Shown here: one piece after another, positions 61 to 6,079 of the stretch
Layout of the letters: the number at the start of each line of letters is the position of its first letter
Position numbering within the stretch: position 1 is the stretch's first letter
IMG/VR virus record: IMGVR_UViG_2698536369_000004
Coordinates: 1-6,899 of that record
DNA: 6,899 nt
Direction: 5' to 3' (one strand)
Source of the DNA: a virus
Taxonomy: Duplodnaviria; Heunggongvirae; Uroviricota; Caudoviricetes
Notes under the pieces: generated by a model
The model's database searches: none
Told to the model about the DNA's origin: nothing
What the model saw: only the letters and a program-made list of their open reading frames with translations
Made by a program: the position numbers and the translations under genes

Positions 61-189
61 TCAAGCCGCTTTTTGTGAATGATTGATGTGAGCTTCAAAG
101 TCGCGGCGTAGATTTTGAACGCGCTCTACACATCCGCGCATTTCAGCCAAAAGCTTACTAACGGCAGTATAGTCAAACGCTTTAGTCAT
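61..189 (-). CDS. Hypothetical small protein (42 aa), second gene of the cassette downstream of cI
   Basis: Not in the ORF track (under 60 aa); found by reading the minus strand. ATG at 189..187, stop TGA at 63..61. Translation: MTKAFDYTAVSKLLAEMRGCVERVQNLRRDFEAHINHSQKAA. Preceded by GAGGGG plus an A-run, 15 nt after the stop of the upstream 120-aa ORF, and followed by the terminator at 13..39. No recognisable motif. Confidence 0.5.
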   Translation of the reverse strand: MTKAFDYTAVSKLLAEMRGCVERVQNLRRDFEAHINHSQKAA

Positions 190-204: not shown

Positions 205-567
205 TTAAATGTAAGGCTCAACATCAAGGGCTGCTATTGCTGCGCACAATGCGTCAGGATCGTCAGCATCGATGGCTTGAGCCAGGTCATTAGCCAGTAT
301 AAGTAACTTATCGATGACAGCGATTTCGCTGGTCTTATCTACACGAAAGTATGGGAGCAGAGCATTACATACGTCTCTGAATGTCCGTAATTCTGCGACA
401 ACGTTCGAAAAGGTAGGATCTTTCTTACGAAGATCCACCAATGGCGCTACTTTAGCTGTTTTCAGCATTGCACTAATCTCGCCAATCATTGTTCCATGCA
501 GACGATTAAATTCATCAACAGCTCGGTCATGCAAGCTCTTGTTGATTGGCAATACGTTTTGGGTCAC
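205..567 (-). CDS. Hypothetical protein (120 aa), first gene of the cassette in the rexA-equivalent position
   Basis: Six-frame ORF with GTG start at 567..565 (first in-frame ATG is codon 27). Minus-strand AAGGAG sits 8 nt upstream of the GTG. Same strand as cI and immediately downstream of it. No similarity to RexA/RexB that I can recognise; no Walker or TM features seen. Confidence 0.7.
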   Translation of the reverse strand: MTQNVLPINKSLHDRAVDEFNRLHGTMIGEISAMLKTAKVAPLVDLRKKDPTFSNVVAELRTFRDVCNALLPYFRVDKTSEIAVIDKLLILANDLAQAIDADDPDALCAAIAALDVEPYI

Positions 568-784: not shown

Positions 785-1501
<717 letters not shown>

Positions 1502-2230: not shown

Positions 2231-2392
2231 ATGACAAAACGTCGTAAGAAATACCAGGAAAAAGAAGAGATTCGACACCCTGATTCACCTGAAGGATTAG
2301 TGGTAGCCGCAGCAAATAACAGGGCGTTCGCAGAGCGCCTTGTTGGTGTTTACAGACTAGCCAAAGCAGGAGTGAAACATGGGCGTCGTTAA
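2231..2392 (+). CDS. Candidate small ORF (53 aa) between cII and the O-type gene
   Basis: Not in the ORF track (under 60 aa). ATG at 2231 with GGGAG 7 nt upstream; the initiation region resembles the lambda O start (..GGAGTCATT-ATGACAAA..). Translation: [53 protein letters not shown]. Ends at TAA 2390-2392, overlapping the O-type start by 14 nt in another frame. Could instead be a non-coding remnant. Confidence 0.35.
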   Translation: MTKRRKKYQEKEEIRHPDSPEGLVVAAANNRAFAERLVGVYRLAKAGVKHGRR

Positions 2393-3200
2393 GTTAGCTG
2401 ATTACAGGCCTCAACTGGAGGTCGTGGAGCATCGCGTGGCAGATACCGAAGATGGTTTCATGCGCGTTGCTAACGAGATTACCGACAGTCTGCTGATGGC
2501 TGATTTAACCGTCCGGCAGCTGAAGGTGATGCTCGCTATCATGCGCAAGACATACGGATTCAATAAGCCGATGGATCGACTCACAAACACGCAGATAGCA
2601 GCCATGACAGGTATTCATCACACTCATGTTTGCGCTGCCAAGCGCCAGCTTATTGAGCGTAAATTCCTCATTGCTGATGGCGTGAAAATCGGAGTGAACA
2701 AGGTGGTTTCGCAGTGGATTAGCCAGGACAGCTTAACATTAGCTAAAACAGCTAATAAAACATTAGCCAAGTCGGCTAATAGGTATAAGCCAAGTCAGCT
2801 AAACACAAAAGACAATATACAAAAGACAATAAATACAAATACCCCCTTACCCCCTAACGGGGGCGGCGATGGGCAGGTTAAACCTGAACGTCGCAAGGCA
2901 GAACGAATCGACTACGAATCCTTCCTGAACGCCTACAACACCGAAGTCGGTAACAGACTTCCACACGCTGTTGCGGTCAACGAGAAACGCAAACGCCGCC
3001 TGAAGAAAATCATCCCGCAACTAAAAACGCCAAACGTGGACGGTTTCAGAGCGTATGTCAGGGCGTTTGTGCATCAGGCCAAGCCGTTTTACTTCGGAGA
3101 CAACGACACGGGCTGGACGGCTGATTTTGATTACCTGCTGAGAGAAGATTCGTTAACGGGAGTTCGGGAAGGGAAGTTTGCAGACAGGGGGATTGCATGA
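2379..3200 (+). CDS. O: Replication initiation protein, lambda O / P22 gp18 type (273 aa)
   Basis: N-terminal region aligns with lambda O as recalled ([28 protein letters not shown] versus lambda ADLTKRQFKVLLAILRKTYGWNKPMDRI). Contains an internal iteron origin. Stop TGA overlaps the helicase ATG (ATGA at 3197-3200). Confidence 0.92.
2719..2863. repeat. Origin of replication inside the O-type gene: four iterons, AT-rich tract, GC hairpin
   Basis: Four ~18-bp iterons with internal dyad symmetry: TTAGCCAGGACAGCTTAA (2719-2736), TTAGCTAAAACAGCTAAT (2739-2756), TTAGCCAAGTCGGCTAAT (2763-2780), TAAGCCAAGTCAGCTAAA (2786-2803). These are followed by an AT-rich stretch with CAAAAGACAATA repeats (2804-2841) and the palindrome CCCCCTAACGGGGG (2850-2863). 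Same architecture as ori-lambda. Confidence 0.78.
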
Positions 3201-4573
3201 GACAGGATATCGAAGCGAGCGTTATCGGTGGCCTGCTGATTGGTGGATTAACACCAACCGCCAGCGACGTTCTGGCAACGCTGGAGCCGGAAGCGTTTTC
3301 AATTCCGCTCTACCGGAAAGCCTTCGAGGTTATCCGCAAGCAGGCGCGAAACAGAAATTTAATCGACGCGCTGATGGTTGCCGAGGCGTGCGGAGAGGAG
3401 CATTTCACGTCAATCCTGATGACCAGCAAAAACTGCCCGAGTGCCGCAAACCTGAAGGGATATGCCGGAATGGTCGCGGATAACTATCACCGCCGTCTGG
3501 TGCTGGAAATCATGGATGAAATGCGTGAACCAATCCAAAGCGGAACCATCGACGCATCGAGTCAGGCGATGGATGAGCTTGTAAAGCGTCTTTCAGCCAT
3601 CAGAAAGCCCCGTGACGAGGTTAAACCGGTACGCTTAGGGGAAATCATCACTGACTACACCGACACGCTTGACAGGCGTCTGAGGAACGGAGAAGAGTCA
3701 GATACCCTGAAGACCGGAATTGAAGAACTTGACGCCATCACCGGAGGGATGAACGCAGAAGACCTAGTGATTATCGCCGCTCGTCCTGGTATGGGGAAAA
3801 CCGAACTGGCGCTGAAGATTGCCGAAGGCGTGGCAAGCCGCGTTATTCCTGGTTCTGACGTCCGGCGCGGGGTATTGATTTTCTCAATGGAAATGAGCGC
3901 ATTGCAGATTGCAGAGCGAAGCATTGCCAACGCCGGGAGGATGTCGGTTAGCGTACTGCGAAATCCTGCATCGATGGATGACGAAGGCTGGGCGCGTGTT
4001 GCTAACGGCATGAGTCAGCTTGCAGATTTTGATGTATGGGTAGTCGATGCCTCGCGGTTATCGGTCGAAGAAATACGCTCAATCGCAGAACGGCACAAAC
4101 AGGAAAATCCAAACCTGTCACTCATCATGGCGGATTATCTTGGCCTGATTGAGAAGCCGAAAGCAGACCGCAACGACCTCGCAATTGCTCACATCTCCGG
4201 AAGCCTGAAGGCGATGGCGAAAGACCTGAAAACGCCTGTTATCTCCCTGAGTCAGCTTTCGCGCGATGTTGAGAAGCGACCAAACAAACGCCCGACAAAC
4301 GCAGATTTGCGTGATTCAGGAAGCATTGAACAGGACGCAGACTCAATCATCATGATCTATCGGGAAGCGGTATATGACGAGAACAGTAGCGCCGCGCCAT
4401 TTGCTGAAATCATCGTGACGAAAAACCGTTTTGGCTCGCTTGGTACGGTTTACCAGCGGTTCTGCAACGGACACTTTGTTGCATGTGACCAGGATGAGGC
4501 CAGACAGATTTGCACAGCATCAAATGCACCCGCTGCACGTGGAAGACGATATGCACAAGGGGCTGACGTATGA
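3197..4573 (+). CDS. Replicative DNA helicase, DnaB family (458 aa), P22 gp12-like
   Basis: Walker A in [13 protein letters not shown] and a DnaB-like motif [10 protein letters not shown] in a RecA-type C-terminal domain, with a DnaB-like N-terminal domain. Size and position directly after the O-type gene match the P22-type replication module. Confidence 0.93.
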
Positions 4574-4598
4574 CCATCTACATCACTGAGCTAATAAC

Positions 4599-4630
4599 AG
4601 GCCTGCTGGTAATCGCAGGCCTTTTTATTT
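4599..4630 (+). terminator. Intrinsic terminator downstream of the helicase gene (tR2-like position)
   Basis: Perfect 8-bp stem AGGCCTGC (4599-4606) / GCAGGCCT (4615-4622), 8-nt loop, followed by TTTTATTT (4623-4630). Confidence 0.72.
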
Positions 4631-4659
4631 GGGGGAGAGGGAATTGGAGGCTTTAAGAA

Positions 4660-4875
4660 ATGAGTACGATAGCTGAGCTTGTCAGGGCTAATTTTCGTGA
4701 AGAGTTGGTGCGTTGGTATCGGTATCGTTCATCGTCCAGTTTGCCGATTGATGAGTTGTATGAGCATTCACCTGCTGCACGACGCTATCCGCGTGACCGT
4801 GTTCTTCGACGGTTGTTCAAACTCAACAATGAGTTTCAGCGCAACAGAATAATCCGGAGTCTGGATTTAAAGTGA
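4660..4875 (+). CDS. Hypothetical basic protein (71 aa)
   Basis: ATG at 4660 with GGAGG 9 nt upstream. Arg-rich (MSTIAELVRANFREELVRWYRYRSSSSLPIDELYEHSPAARRYPRDRVLRRLFKLNNEFQRNRIIRSLDLK). First ORF after the terminator; no family recognised. Confidence 0.6.
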   Translation: MSTIAELVRANFREELVRWYRYRSSSSLPIDELYEHSPAARRYPRDRVLRRLFKLNNEFQRNRIIRSLDLK

Positions 4876-4885
4876 AGGAGTGAGC

Positions 4886-5071
4886 ATGAGTCGACGAAGT
4901 AGCTTTTTGGGGTTTGTAATATTCCTATTCTGCACTGGTTACATCGTAATCTGGTCAATTTCGAACATTGAACGTGGCGGGGAATATCTCATTGTAATGT
5001 TCTTTCCTTTGTTTCTTGGGTGGTACGCCGCAAGGTTGCTGGAAGAATGGGGTTACAGGCATAAAAAATAA
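4886..5071 (+). CDS. Hypothetical small membrane protein (61 aa, two predicted TM helices)
   Basis: The ORF-track start at 4880 is GTG; the ATG at 4886 has AAGGAG (4875-4880) 5 nt upstream. Hydrophobic segments FLGFVIFLFCTGYIVIWSI and YLIVMFFPLFLGWYAA; basic C-terminus (YRHKK). Confidence 0.6.
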   Translation: MSRRSSFLGFVIFLFCTGYIVIWSISNIERGGEYLIVMFFPLFLGWYAARLLEEWGYRHKK

Positions 5072-5130
5072 AGGAGTGTTCAGTGAAGCAAACCCTTTTT
5101 TATTGGATTAAGAGCGAGGGGTAAGTACCG

Positions 5131-5313
5131 ATGGTAAATGCATTTATTTGTAGTTTATTTCTTGTCGCGATTTTTCATGGATTCCTTCTGATGATGAGTT
5201 TTGTTCTCTGGAATAATGAATATCGCATATTGGGAGTAGGTTTTGTTTTACGGTTTTCAGTTGTCTGCGCGTTGCTACCGATAATTATGGCGACTATCAA
5301 ATATTATTGGTAA
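5131..5313 (+). CDS. Hypothetical small membrane protein (60 aa, two predicted TM helices)
   Basis: ATG at 5131 with GAGGGG about 10 nt upstream. Hydrophobic segments AFICSLFLVAIFHGFLLMMSFVLW and ILGVGFVLRFSVVCALLPIIMATI. AT-rich codon usage. Confidence 0.55.
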   Translation: MVNAFICSLFLVAIFHGFLLMMSFVLWNNEYRILGVGFVLRFSVVCALLPIIMATIKYYW

Positions 5314-5328
5314 CCCAAAAAATCATCG

Positions 5329-5697
5329 ATGGAGAGTGATATGGACGAATCAAGAAAGCAGTTTGAGGAATACGTTGCCAAAAAATTGAGATTACCATTC
5401 GAGATGATAACCGAGGCAAGAAATGGTGATAGGTACTTCGCATTTTCAAGCATGGATATTCGTCACTCCTTAAATGAGTGGTGGACTTTATGGCAGGCAT
5501 CGCGAGCAGCTATTGAACTGGATATCGACTGGCCAGAATCGAATGACGACTTTTGGAGAGATGGTGAAGAAGGTGCTTATGCGATGGGTTATGAGAATGG
5601 GCGTGACAAAACGGTAATTGCAGTAATGAAAGCTATCAGAGCCGCTGGAATTAAAGAGAAGAATTTCGATGAAGCAAACAATCTTCCTCCGAAGTAA
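5329..5697 (+). CDS. Hypothetical acidic protein (122 aa; alternative start at 5341 gives 118 aa)
   Basis: Long ORF. The ATG at 5341 has GGAGAG (5331-5336) upstream, whereas the ATG at 5329 has no SD. Acidic and Trp-rich (NEWWTLWQASRAAIELDIDWPESNDDFWRDGEEGAY). 3' end overlaps the ninB start by 29 nt. No family recognised. Confidence 0.62.
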   Translation: MESDMDESRKQFEEYVAKKLRLPFEMITEARNGDRYFAFSSMDIRHSLNEWWTLWQASRAAIELDIDWPESNDDFWRDGEEGAYAMGYENGRDKTVIAVMKAIRAAGIKEKNFDEANNLPPK

Positions 5698-6079
5698 GCA
5701 ACAACAGCAAGCCGCAATCAACGCCATCCTCGCAACACCACTCGATAAAGACAAGCCAGTCACCATCCGCATTACTGACTACAAGCGCAACCTTGACCAG
5801 AACGCAAAATTTCACGCGATGGTCGCAGATATCGCTCGTCAAGCTCAATGGTGCGGCAAATGGTTAAAACCAGAACAATGGAAGGTTTTGTTGATCAGCG
5901 GTCATGCAGTGGCAACAAAGCAGGAAGCTGATGTTTTGCCCGGGCTTGAAGGCGAATACGTCAACATTCGCGAAAGCAGCGCGCAGATGAGTGTGAAGCG
6001 TATGGCAAGTCTTATCGAGTACACAACAGCTTGGGCTATTGGTCAGGGTGTCAGATTTACCGACAGGAGGTACGAATGA
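5669..6079 (+). CDS. ninB: NinB (Orf-family recombination mediator), 136 aa
   Basis: Aligns with lambda NinB as recalled ([20 protein letters not shown] versus MKKLTFEIRSPAHQQNAIHAV; [12 protein letters not shown] versus RSLDQNRKLWAC). Stop overlaps the ninE start (ATGA at 6076-6079). Confidence 0.9.

What the first reader, a model, noticed from the sequence alone, without database searches (positions are those of the whole stretch)
4660..5697. Accessory cluster of four small ORFs between the helicase terminator and ninB, including two tandem 2-TM micro-proteins
Immediately after the intrinsic terminator at 4599..4630 lie four closely spaced same-strand ORFs: a 71-aa Arg-rich protein, two ~60-aa proteins each with two predicted TM helices, and a 122-aa acidic Trp-rich protein whose end overlaps ninB. 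The segment from about 4880 to 5330 is visibly more AT-rich than the flanking helicase and nin genes. Lambda carries ren (an exclusion-related gene) in this interval, and the region is variable among lambdoid phages. Small paired membrane proteins here could be superinfection-exclusion or abortive-infection effectors, or anti-defence factors. None matches a family I recognise.
Basis: partly seen in the sequence, partly recalled or inferred. Interest (0 to 1): 0.65.

Follow-up and report, generated by a model that had tools for sequence, protein, structure and literature searches.

The report
Mosaic phage accessory genes before ninB
The four small genes between the replication helicase and ninB of this lambda-like prophage are real, but they are an ordinary recombination-shuffled set of accessory genes of unknown function; two are tiny membrane proteins that NCBI's standard annotation pipeline misses.

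Summary
After a tR2-type terminator (4599-4632) lie four same-strand genes, each with a Shine-Dalgarno site.

- ORF1 (4660-4875) belongs to Pfam DUF7301.
- ORF2 (true start ATG 4886, 61 aa) is a two-helix membrane protein.
- ORF3 (5131-5313, 60 aa) is also a two-helix membrane protein.
- ORF4 (true start probably ATG 5341, 118 aa) belongs to the phiTE_015 family (PF26207, phrog_343).

ORF2 and ORF3 are unrelated to each other, so they are not tandem duplicates. A single recombination event put them side by side and left an 11-nt ninB start remnant at 5083-5093.

ORF2 is under purifying selection (pN/pS 0.31). ORF3 shows none among close relatives (0.92). It does have 30-40% identical relatives of 61-65 aa with a conserved motif, in early operons of other lambdoid prophages.

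The interval works as a slot system: tR2, then one of several small (mostly membrane) proteins, then phiTE_015, then an optional gene, then ninB.

No defence, anti-defence, RNA or structural match was found. The genes sit behind tR2 with no promoter of their own. This favours delayed-early lytic expression over exclusion by the lysogen. Function is still unknown, and interest is modest.

The parts
4599..4632 (+). tR2-type intrinsic terminator after the DnaB-type helicase gene (3197-4573)
   Evidence: Terminator scan finds an 8-bp stem with 6 GC pairs followed by TTTTTATTT. The same element is annotated 'tR2 terminator' in phage Nil2, AJ413274.
4660..4875 (+). ORF1: 71-aa Arg-rich soluble helical protein, Pfam DUF7301 / phrog_1785
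   Evidence: Pfam PF23975 E 9.3e-26, 90.2 bits against a cut-off of 27. phrog_1785 E 2.6e-33. PGAP annotates it as 'DUF7301 family protein'. GGAGG lies 9 nt upstream of the ATG. pN/pS 0.20. Single-sequence AF2 model is all-helical, pLDDT 72, with no specific fold match.
4869..4890 (+). 22-nt inter-module linker AAAGTGAAGGAGTGAGCATGAG, holding the stop of the upstream gene, a Shine-Dalgarno site and the start of the downstream gene
   Evidence: The identical sequence joins phiTE_015>ORF2 in other prophages, DUF7301>Lar-like gene in Stx phages, and DUF7301>ORF2 here. It is inferred to be the homologous recombination point. It fixes ATG 4886 as the ORF2 start.
4886..5071 (+). ORF2: 61-aa predicted two-helix inner-membrane hairpin with an unnamed, narrow family
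   Evidence: AAGGAG lies 5 nt upstream. Hydrophobic segments at residues 5-26 and 34-49, N-terminal RR and a basic C-terminus. Compared with a 70%-identical homologue (P0004, locus L008) there are 47 nt differences, no indel, codon positions 17/6/23, and pN/pS 0.31 in frame against 0.82 and 1.79 off frame. 17 alleles, none with a stop. No Pfam, PHROG, NCBIfam or PADLOC match. Not annotated by PGAP but annotated in some GenBank records.
5083..5124 (+). Recombination scar. A ninB Shine-Dalgarno site (5072-5076) and the first 11 nt of ninB (GTGAAGCAAAC, 5083-5093) are fused at about 5093 to the T-tract of a lost tR2-type terminator (CCTTTTTTATTGG). Together they form a 13-codon ORF that ends 6 nt before ORF3.
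   Evidence: In prophages where ORF2 directly precedes ninB, the same GTGAAGCAAAC is the ninB start. Where ORF3 follows the helicase, CCCTTTTTTATTGG is the tail of the terminator. BLAST module boundaries meet at 5093. All 33 loci with ORF2>ORF3 share this breakpoint. Translation is VKQTLFYWIKSEG*. No terminator is predicted here.
5131..5313 (+). ORF3: 60-aa predicted two-helix membrane protein, member of an unnamed family with motif SFVxWxNA[FY][RK]xLGxG[FY][VI]xR
   Evidence: GAGGGG lies 9-10 nt upstream. Hydrophobic segments at residues 1-27 and 32-59, with invariant H16 among close relatives and R41 across the whole family. A profile search of 1.84 billion proteins finds relatives of 61-65 aa at 30-40% identity (P0129 E 4e-9; P0131, P0132, P0134). 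Two of these, P0129 and P0132, were looked up and lie in early operons of other lambdoid prophages; the P0132 gene overlaps the gene upstream (ATGA). Identity to locus L010 is 91% over the ORF but 32-50% just upstream. Caveats: pN/pS is 0.92 among close relatives, and PGAP does not annotate it.
5341..5697 (+). ORF4: 118-aa acidic, Trp-rich soluble protein of the phiTE_015 family (PF26207 / phrog_343). Its last 29 nt overlap ninB.
   Evidence: phrog_343 E 1.8e-31. 135 homologue clusters, and all 120 listed carry the precomputed label PF26207. GGAGAG lies 4 nt before ATG 5341; relatives start MDESRK. pN/pS 0.38. The C-terminal half (W..WQASRAAIELDIDWPE..DD.W..GEEGAYA.G...G.DK..IAV.KAIRAAGIK) is conserved and the N-terminal third is variable. 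AF2 model has pLDDT 70 and no significant fold match. PGAP calls only a shortened 81-aa form starting at 5452.
5669..6079 (+). ninB (flanking anchor gene), followed by ninE, ninX and ninF
   Evidence: Pfam NinB E 1.8e-54, NinE 7.5e-44, NinX 3.4e-16, NinF 1.8e-12.

Best explanation
This is a four-gene accessory cassette of the nin/ea type in the early-right (pR) operon of a lambda-immunity lambdoid prophage. It was assembled by recombination from independently circulating one-gene modules.

Shown:
- All four ORFs are genuine protein-coding units with ribosome-binding sites.
- ORF1 is DUF7301 and ORF4 is a phiTE_015-family protein.
- ORF2 and ORF3 are two unrelated proteins of about 60 aa, each with two hydrophobic helices.
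- Across lambdoid prophages the interval follows a slot pattern: tR2, then one of {phrog_1165 two-helix protein, ORF3, phrog_5903 membrane-anchored protein, DUF7301}, then phiTE_015, then one of {nothing, ORF2, phrog_1603, DUF7301 plus Lar-like}, then ninB.
- The window is a composite of two such arrays. It is joined at a conserved 22-nt linker (4869-4890) and at an illegitimate junction (about 5093) that kept the first 11 nt of ninB.

Inferred:
- The genes have no promoter of their own and lie behind tR2, so they are transcribed only when N antiterminates. That makes them delayed-early lytic genes, like ren and the nin genes.
- ORF2 and ORF3 insert in the inner membrane as helical hairpins. 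ORF2 probably has both ends in the cytoplasm.
- They most likely act there during lytic growth as dispensable host- or competitor-directed factors. Possible roles are blocking DNA entry of a second phage, as T4 Imm does, or blunting a membrane-acting abortive-infection system. They are less likely to protect the lysogen.

The biochemical target is unknown.
For: Gene reality:
- Shine-Dalgarno sites lie before all four starts.
- ORF2 has pN/pS 0.31 in frame against 0.82 and 1.79 off frame, over 47 substitutions with no indel.
- ORF3 has relatives of 61-65 aa at 30-40% identity with a conserved motif. The two that were looked up (P0129, P0132) lie in lambdoid early operons, and P0132 is translationally coupled to its upstream gene.
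- Homology blocks begin and end at the ORF3 boundaries.
- ORF1 and ORF4 match curated families.

Mosaic and slot structure.

Operon position:
- One terminator at 4599 and no +-strand promoter in 4400-5900.
- The same element is annotated tR2 in Nil2.
- nin-region genes are described as nonessential and tightly packed (PMC8022706).

Membrane character: two hydrophobic segments in each protein, with basic termini on ORF2.

Nothing else is encoded there: no Rfam match.
Against: - There is no expression or functional data of any kind.
- ORF3 shows no purifying selection among close relatives (pN/pS 0.92). An ORF this size would stay open by chance in 34-48% of simulations.
- In 22 loci the ORF3 Shine-Dalgarno site is weakened from GAGGGG to GAGTGG.
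- PGAP does not call ORF2 or ORF3.
- Transmembrane helices and topology rest on hydropathy only.
- The promoter scan is a simple sigma-70 consensus and could miss a weak or atypical promoter, so lysogenic expression is not excluded.
- The membrane-directed lytic role is reasoned from position and analogy, not tested.
Confidence: 0.55

Rival explanations
1. Defence by the lysogen. ORF2 and/or ORF3 are made in the lysogen and exclude superinfecting phages or trigger abortive infection, as SieA, SieB, RexB or HK97 gp15 do.
For: They are small inner-membrane proteins. Their GC is lower than the flanks, typical of acquired cargo. They vary in presence among related prophages. Several known exclusion proteins are small membrane proteins (my own knowledge; reviews PMC11436027 and PMC10883804 were listed but not read in detail).
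Against: No promoter is predicted on the + strand and no terminator follows the genes. They are embedded co-directionally behind tR2 in the repressed pR operon. No PADLOC model matches. The known lambdoid exclusion genes (rexAB, sieA, sieB) have their own prophage-active promoters (my own knowledge).
Confidence: 0.15
2. Two-part module. The phiTE_015-family protein (ORF4) works together with an interchangeable small membrane protein (ORF3, phrog_1165, phrog_5903 or ORF2), which tethers or targets it at the inner membrane.
For: Among 70 ORF3-family loci, a phiTE_015 gene begins within 120 nt downstream in 61 and within 400 nt in 3 more. The conserved ORF3 block runs on through a fixed 27-nt spacer into the first 30 nt of phiTE_015. 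The 40%-identical relative P0129 also lies two genes upstream of a phiTE_015 gene. In a phiTE_015-anchored sample of 80 loci, the upstream neighbour is a membrane protein in roughly three quarters. ORF2 usually lies directly after a phiTE_015 gene.
Against: In about a fifth of loci the upstream neighbour is the soluble DUF7301. The Atlantibacter relative P0132 has no phiTE_015 gene within 4 kb on either side. The interval holds few gene slots, so adjacency may be positional only. The locus samples are biased towards close relatives and contain repeated lineages. No interaction was modelled.
Confidence: 0.15
3. One or both micro-ORFs, ORF3 above all, are non-functional. They would be a decaying gene or a chance ORF in T-rich spacer or leader DNA carried along with the phiTE_015 gene.
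For: ORF3 has pN/pS 0.92 and variable sites spread evenly over codon positions (7/9/11). A T content of 43% favours hydrophobic codons. PGAP leaves both unannotated. Chance survival of the open frame is not unlikely.
Against: ORF3 has distant protein-level relatives of the same length with a conserved motif. Of the two looked up, one is syntenic and the other lies in a different operon, with a strong Shine-Dalgarno site and ATGA coupling. Sequence identity drops sharply just outside the ORF. ORF2 is clearly under purifying selection in its frame. No RNA family matches.
Confidence: 0.1

Closest known systems
Lambda ren and nin-region genes, and the P22 nin/ea genes (nonessential early accessory genes of lambdoid phages)
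   Same: Same operon and same interval (replication genes to ninB). The genes are tightly packed, small and variable among relatives, and are read only after antitermination at tR2 (PMC8022706).
   Different: No sequence similarity to ren. In some prophages ren sits upstream of the same cluster, so the cluster adds to ren rather than replacing it. ORF2 and ORF3 are membrane proteins. ren and the named nin proteins found in the window (NinB, E, X, F) are not known as membrane proteins (my own knowledge).
Pfam DUF7301 (PF23975) / phrog_1785
   Same: ORF1 matches end to end, well above the curated cut-off.
   Different: Nothing differs. The family itself has no known function, and no paper in the library mentions it.
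Phage_phiTE_015 family (PF26207) / phrog_343, which includes Sf6 gene 48 and homologues in 933W, VT2-Sakai, HK022 and mEp213
   Same: ORF4 shares the conserved C-terminal half and the MDESRKQFE start. It occupies the family's usual place just upstream of ninB.
   Different: The N-terminal third is a variable cassette that differs between members. No function is known and no paper was found.
T4 Imm (small two-helix inner-membrane protein made early in infection that blocks DNA entry of a second phage)
   Same: Functional analogy only: small size, two predicted helices and early lytic expression (my own knowledge of Imm; for the window).
   Different: No homology was tested or claimed. No exclusion phenotype is known for ORF2 or ORF3.
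Class II holins / pinholins (for example phage 21 S21, about 70 aa, two transmembrane helices, charged C-terminus)
   Same: ORF2 has a similar size, two hydrophobic helices and a basic C-terminal tail.
   Different: It lies in the early operon, not the lysis cassette. The related O26 prophage has its own lambda-family holin, endolysin and spanin downstream. No Pfam or PHROG holin model matches.
phrog_1165 (68-aa two-helix protein) and phrog_5903 (106 aa, N-terminal membrane anchor)
   Same: They fill the same slot as ORF3, as the first gene after tR2 and directly upstream of phiTE_015, in other prophages.
   Different: No detectable sequence relationship to ORF2 or ORF3. They are absent from the window.

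Membership tests
Pfam DUF7301 (PF23975) for ORF1 | Full-length HMM match above the curated gathering score | tested here: met
   90.2 bits against a cut-off of 27; residues 1-64 align to profile positions 1-64 of 65. PGAP gives the same name.
Phage_phiTE_015 (PF26207) for ORF4 | Match to the Pfam model | tested here: inconclusive
   The local Pfam copy lacks this model: P0008, which carries the precomputed PF26207 label, also returns nothing. Indirect support is strong. All 120 listed homologues, including one 97% identical over 118 aa, carry PF26207.
phrog_343 for ORF4 | HMM match over most of the protein | tested here: met
   E 1.8e-31; residues 1-118 align to profile positions 32-131 of 135. 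The Gally gene noted as 'similar to P22 EaD' matches the same phrog.
Lar / Lar-like restriction alleviation (phrog_599; zinc ribbon) for ORF1 or ORF4 | HMM match and the CxxC...CxxC zinc-ribbon cysteines | tested here: not met
   The Stx-phage 'Lar-like' protein (MSDLSLTQPKLKECPFCGG...CDLC) matches phrog_599. ORF1 and ORF4 contain no cysteine and match other phrogs. No Lar-like gene is in the window.
Lambda Ren | Sequence similarity to Ren | tested here: not met
   tblastn of a Ren protein (from locus L007) against the window gives a best E-value of 4.3 on the wrong strand.
Known anti-phage defence proteins (PADLOC-DB v2) | Match to any defence-system HMM | tested here: not met
   No match at E <= 1 for any of the four proteins.
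Holins (class II) | Two transmembrane helices, location in a lysis cassette next to an endolysin, and a holin family HMM match | tested here: not met
   Two hydrophobic helices are present. The location is the early operon, and a separate lambda-family holin, lysozyme and lysis-protein cassette lies downstream in the related prophage. No holin family matches.
ORF3 family (unnamed; defined here) | About 60-65 aa, two hydrophobic segments, central motif SFVxWxNA[FY][RK]xLGxG[FY][VI]xR, and a location in a lambdoid early operon | tested here: met
   Alignment A4 has invariant S23, F24, W27, N29, L34, G35 and R41. Relatives were found at E 4e-9 to 2e-4 in a library of 1.84 billion proteins.
Tandem paralogues (ORF2 and ORF3 as duplicates) | Detectable sequence or profile similarity between the two | tested here: not met
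   hhalign probability 0.3% over 8 aligned columns. They occur independently in other prophages.
T4 Imm-type superinfection immunity protein | Homology to Imm and blockage of DNA injection | not tested
   No Imm sequence or assay was available. The comparison is by analogy only.

The most novel reading that the evidence does not exclude
The phiTE_015-family protein and an interchangeable small membrane protein (ORF3, ORF2, phrog_1165 or phrog_5903) form a previously unrecognised two-part early-lytic module that is widespread in enterobacterial lambdoid phages. The membrane hairpin would recruit or gate the acidic soluble partner at the inner membrane, to exclude competing phages or to disarm a membrane-acting host defence. 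The window would then carry two alternative membrane partners for one phiTE_015 gene.
Probability: 0.12. Interest if true: 0.6.

Novelty: new member of a known kind. Interest (0 to 1): 0.33.

Why it matters
The practical value is in annotation. Two small membrane-protein genes occur in about 4% of complete E. coli genomes (214 of 5,426), but RefSeq/PGAP leaves them out, and neither is in Pfam or PHROGs. One of them defines a conserved family of about 60 aa with a clear motif, found in early operons of lambdoid prophages.

The locus also shows clearly how lambdoid accessory genes are shuffled. One junction uses a conserved 22-nt stop/Shine-Dalgarno/start linker that different gene pairs share. 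The other is an illegitimate junction that fossilised the first 11 nt of ninB.

If the membrane proteins prove to act in phage competition or counter-defence, phage Gally would be a convenient model. It is a cultured P22-like phage that carries ORF3, phiTE_015 and ORF2. As things stand, the cluster is typical lambdoid 'dark matter' and not a new kind of system.

Tried and rejected
- Known RNA in the AT-rich segment: Rfam at E <= 1 gave only a chance snoRNA hit at 0.84.
- Defence systems: PADLOC gave nothing.
- NCBIfam gave nothing for any of the four proteins.
- PDB sequence search: nothing at E <= 1 for ORF1-3. For the ORF4 profile, only a chance hit at E 0.58.
- ORF2/ORF3 paralogy: rejected.
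- Relationship of ORF2 or ORF3 to the positional analogue phrog_1165: rejected.
- 'Lar-like restriction alleviation' labels on neighbouring database entries belong to a different zinc-ribbon protein that is absent here.
- ren homology: none.
- Weak Pfam hits (Acyl_transf_3, QcrA_N, VMA21, DUF4181) are below their cut-offs and look like hydrophobic-composition noise.
- The label 'Renin receptor-like protein' on one ORF2 cluster member is unsupported by any search here. I take it to be the same kind of artefact.
- The search for related loci with the divergent ORF3 alignment failed because no stretch was conserved enough.
- Literature searches for phiTE_015, DUF7301 and vb_24B_15 returned no papers.
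- The link of ORF4 to P22 EaD rests only on an annotator's note in the phage Gally record. I did not test it against P22 itself.
Full report
**Context.** The window is the immunity, replication and nin segment of a lambdoid prophage.
- A cI repressor lies at 785-1498 (minus strand; S24 peptidase plus HTH).
- It is followed by cro, cII (Phage_CII), an O-type replication protein (2379-3200) and a DnaB-type helicase (3197-4573).
- After the region in question come ninB, ninE, ninX and ninF.
- The cI and cro translations look like those of phage lambda. That is my own recollection and was not tested.
- The exact ORF2 and ORF4 proteins are on record from a 6,899-bp E. coli contig, the same length as the window.

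**Checking the observation.**
- The terminator scan finds one intrinsic terminator, with a stem at 4599-4622 and a T-run after it, and no +-strand promoter between 4400 and 5900. Phage Nil2 has the same element annotated as tR2.
- Four same-strand ORFs follow.
- The segment 4880-5330 has GC 0.390, against 0.529 for the helicase gene and 0.491 for ninB. ORF3 alone is 0.344, with 43% T.
- ORF1 has 14 Arg in 71 residues. ORF4 is acidic and has five Trp. ORF2 and ORF3 each have two hydrophobic segments.

The description is therefore correct. Two start codons need revision.
- ORF2 begins at ATG 4886, giving 61 aa. AAGGAG lies 5 nt upstream, and the GTG at 4880 lies inside that Shine-Dalgarno site.
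- ORF4 most likely begins at ATG 5341, giving 118 aa. GGAGAG lies 4 nt upstream, relatives begin MDESRK, and the ATG at 5329 has no Shine-Dalgarno site.

**Family assignments.**
- ORF1 is a full-length member of Pfam DUF7301 (90.2 bits, cut-off 27) and of phrog_1785.
- ORF4 matches phrog_343 (E 1.8e-31). It has 135 homologue clusters, and all 120 listed carry the precomputed Pfam label PF26207, Phage_phiTE_015. The local Pfam copy lacks that model.
- The phiTE_015 family is found in 150 phage records, including 933W, VT2-Sakai, Sf6 (gene 48), HK022 and mEp213. All of these entries are 'hypothetical'.
- ORF2 and ORF3 match nothing in Pfam, PHROGs, NCBIfam, PADLOC or the PDB.
- Structure predictions for ORF4 (pLDDT 70) and ORF1 (pLDDT 72, single sequence) are helical and have no significant fold match.
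- The 'Lar-like' labels seen on neighbouring entries belong to a cysteine-rich zinc-ribbon protein (phrog_599) that is not in this window.

**Are the two micro-ORFs genes?** RefSeq/PGAP does not annotate either one, and it calls ORF4 only from an internal ATG.

For ORF2 the evidence is good.
- A 70%-identical homologue sits directly after a DnaB helicase gene in another contig. It differs at 47 of 186 nt with no indel.
- The changes fall 17/6/23 by codon position. pN/pS is 0.31 in frame, against 0.82 and 1.79 in the other two frames.
- None of the 17 alleles has a stop codon.

For ORF3 the close relatives say little.
- There are 17 differences from the most divergent one, pN/pS is 0.92, and the chance of staying open at random is 34-48%.
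- A profile search of 1.84 billion representative proteins settles the matter. It finds proteins of 61-65 aa at 30-40% identity with the same two hydrophobic segments. They share a conserved central motif, SFVxWxNA[FY][RK]xLGxG[FY][VI]xR.
- The 40%-identical relative lies in the same helicase-to-ninB interval of another prophage.
- A 30%-identical relative from Atlantibacter hermannii lies in the early-left operon, between dam and a TraR-type zinc-finger gene. It has GGAGG upstream and an ATGA overlap with the gene before it.
- Identity between the window and a diverged locus is 91% across ORF3 and 32-50% just upstream of it. This is the usual gene-boundary pattern of lambdoid mosaics.
- No Rfam family matches the segment.

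I conclude that both are protein-coding. ORF3 appears to be under relaxed or diversifying constraint within its E. coli clade.

**Relationship and origin.**
- ORF2 and ORF3 are unrelated (hhalign probability 0.3%). Each circulates on its own.
- ORF2 usually lies between a phiTE_015 gene and ninB. ORF3 is usually the first gene after tR2 and lies directly before a phiTE_015 gene.
- In the cultured phage Gally the order is helicase, ORF3, phiTE_015, ORF2, ninB.

In the window, three junctions can be read from the sequence.
1. At 4869-4890, the 22-nt string AAAGTGAAGGAGTGAGCATGAG holds a stop codon, a Shine-Dalgarno site and a start codon. The identical string joins phiTE_015 to ORF2, and DUF7301 to the Lar-like gene, in other phages. 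It is probably a homologous crossover point.
2. At about 5093, the ninB ribosome-binding site and first 11 nt (GTGAAGCAAAC) are fused to the T-tract of a tR2-type terminator whose stem has been lost. All 33 loci with ORF2 next to ORF3 share this breakpoint, so the adjacency arose once. The scar forms a 13-codon ORF that ends 6 nt before ORF3.
3. The ORF3 block continues through a fixed 27-nt spacer into the first 30 nt of phiTE_015 (97% identity). After that, similarity collapses to 30%.

**The wider pattern.** I surveyed 113 loci anchored on ORF2 or ORF3 and 80 anchored on phiTE_015. The interval behaves as a slot system:
- tR2;
- then one of phrog_1165 (68 aa, two helices), ORF3, phrog_5903 (N-terminal anchor) or DUF7301;
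- then phiTE_015;
- then nothing, ORF2, phrog_1603, or DUF7301 plus Lar-like;
- then ninB.

Among 70 ORF3-family loci, a phiTE_015 gene starts within 120 nt downstream in 61 and within 400 nt in 3 more. This raises the possibility that phiTE_015 works with a small membrane partner. Three points weaken that idea. The soluble DUF7301 fills the same slot in about a fifth of loci. The Atlantibacter relative has no phiTE_015 gene nearby. The samples are also not independent lineages.

**Distribution.**
- The full four-gene arrangement is in 54 of 5,426 complete E. coli genomes (those listed are mostly O26 strains, identified by strain name or serotype) and in no phage record.
- Some part of 4876-5330 is in 214 genomes.
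- Among 50,697 phage records, ORF2 is in four and ORF3 in one.

**How it probably works.**
- The genes are co-directional, closely spaced, and behind tR2 with no promoter of their own. They should therefore be made only when N antiterminates, as delayed-early lytic products like ren and the nin genes. Those genes are described as nonessential (PMC8022706).
- ORF2 has a basic N-terminus (RR), a short loop and a basic C-terminal tail. This suggests a hairpin with both ends in the cytoplasm.
- ORF3 has few charges, and a His (invariant among its close relatives) and a family-wide invariant Arg within its hydrophobic segments.
- My best guess is that they act at the inner membrane during lytic growth. 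They might work against competing phages or membrane-acting host defences, by analogy with T4 Imm. That analogy rests on my own knowledge and was not tested.
It cannot be excluded without transcript data.
- None of this is demonstrated.

**Verdict.** The cluster is a typical mosaic set of uncharacterised lambdoid accessory genes. Two belong to named families of unknown function. The other two are unnamed small membrane proteins that standard annotation misses. Interest is modest.

Noticed in passing
window 205-567 (- strand) and 61-189 (- strand); low-GC gap 568-784: Downstream of cI, where lambda carries rexA/rexB, there is instead a 120-aa ORF (phrog_13858, unknown function, E 5e-73, no Pfam) and a 42-aa ORF (phrog_12503). 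A spacer of GC about 0.30 separates them from cI. This is a candidate prophage-expressed cargo position.
   Followed up: partly
window 5072-5124: The ninB remnant keeps its AGGAG Shine-Dalgarno site and GTG start, and encodes VKQTLFYWIKSEG*. It stops 6 nt before the ORF3 ATG. Ribosomes loading there could couple translation into ORF3. This is specific to the ORF2>ORF3 arrangement.
   Followed up: partly
window 4886-4912 (ORF2 residues 1-9): The N-terminus MSRRSSFLG resembles a twin-arginine (Tat) motif (S-R-R-x-F-L-K) but has one extra residue. The two Arg are invariant in all four homologue clusters. More likely this is a positive-inside anchor than a Tat signal.
   Followed up: no
window 5341-5697, compared with RefSeq E. 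coli O26:H11 11368 (L004 6893-7138): PGAP calls the phiTE_015-family gene from an internal ATG (window 5452, 81 aa). That drops the conserved MDESRKQFE N-terminus present across the family. It is probably a systematic start-site error in RefSeq.
   Followed up: partly
window 2231-2392: A 53-aa ORF between cII and the O-type replication gene matches phrog_1331 (unknown function, E 1.4e-37). It is also called in related prophages, as a 53-aa gene at the same position in L010 and L014.
   Followed up: partly
L010 3455-3661 and 3674-3994; same genes in many loci: Two further small membrane proteins, phrog_1165 (68 aa, two helices, GRAVY 1.5) and phrog_5903 (106 aa, N-terminal anchor), fill the first slot after tR2 in other lambdoid prophages. 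Small membrane proteins are the commonest occupants of this slot in the loci sampled.
   Followed up: partly
protein cluster 3: The 90%-identity cluster holding the DUF7301 protein also lists unrelated 'Lar family restriction alleviation' zinc-ribbon proteins (P0157, P0161, P0163). This looks like a clustering or labelling artefact that could mislead name transfer.
   Followed up: partly
L114 3556-4008: In the prophage carrying the 40%-identical ORF3 relative, a 150-aa protein with faint MarR/IclR-type HTH hits sits between the helicase gene and the ORF3 relative, overlapping its start by 8 nt.
   Followed up: no
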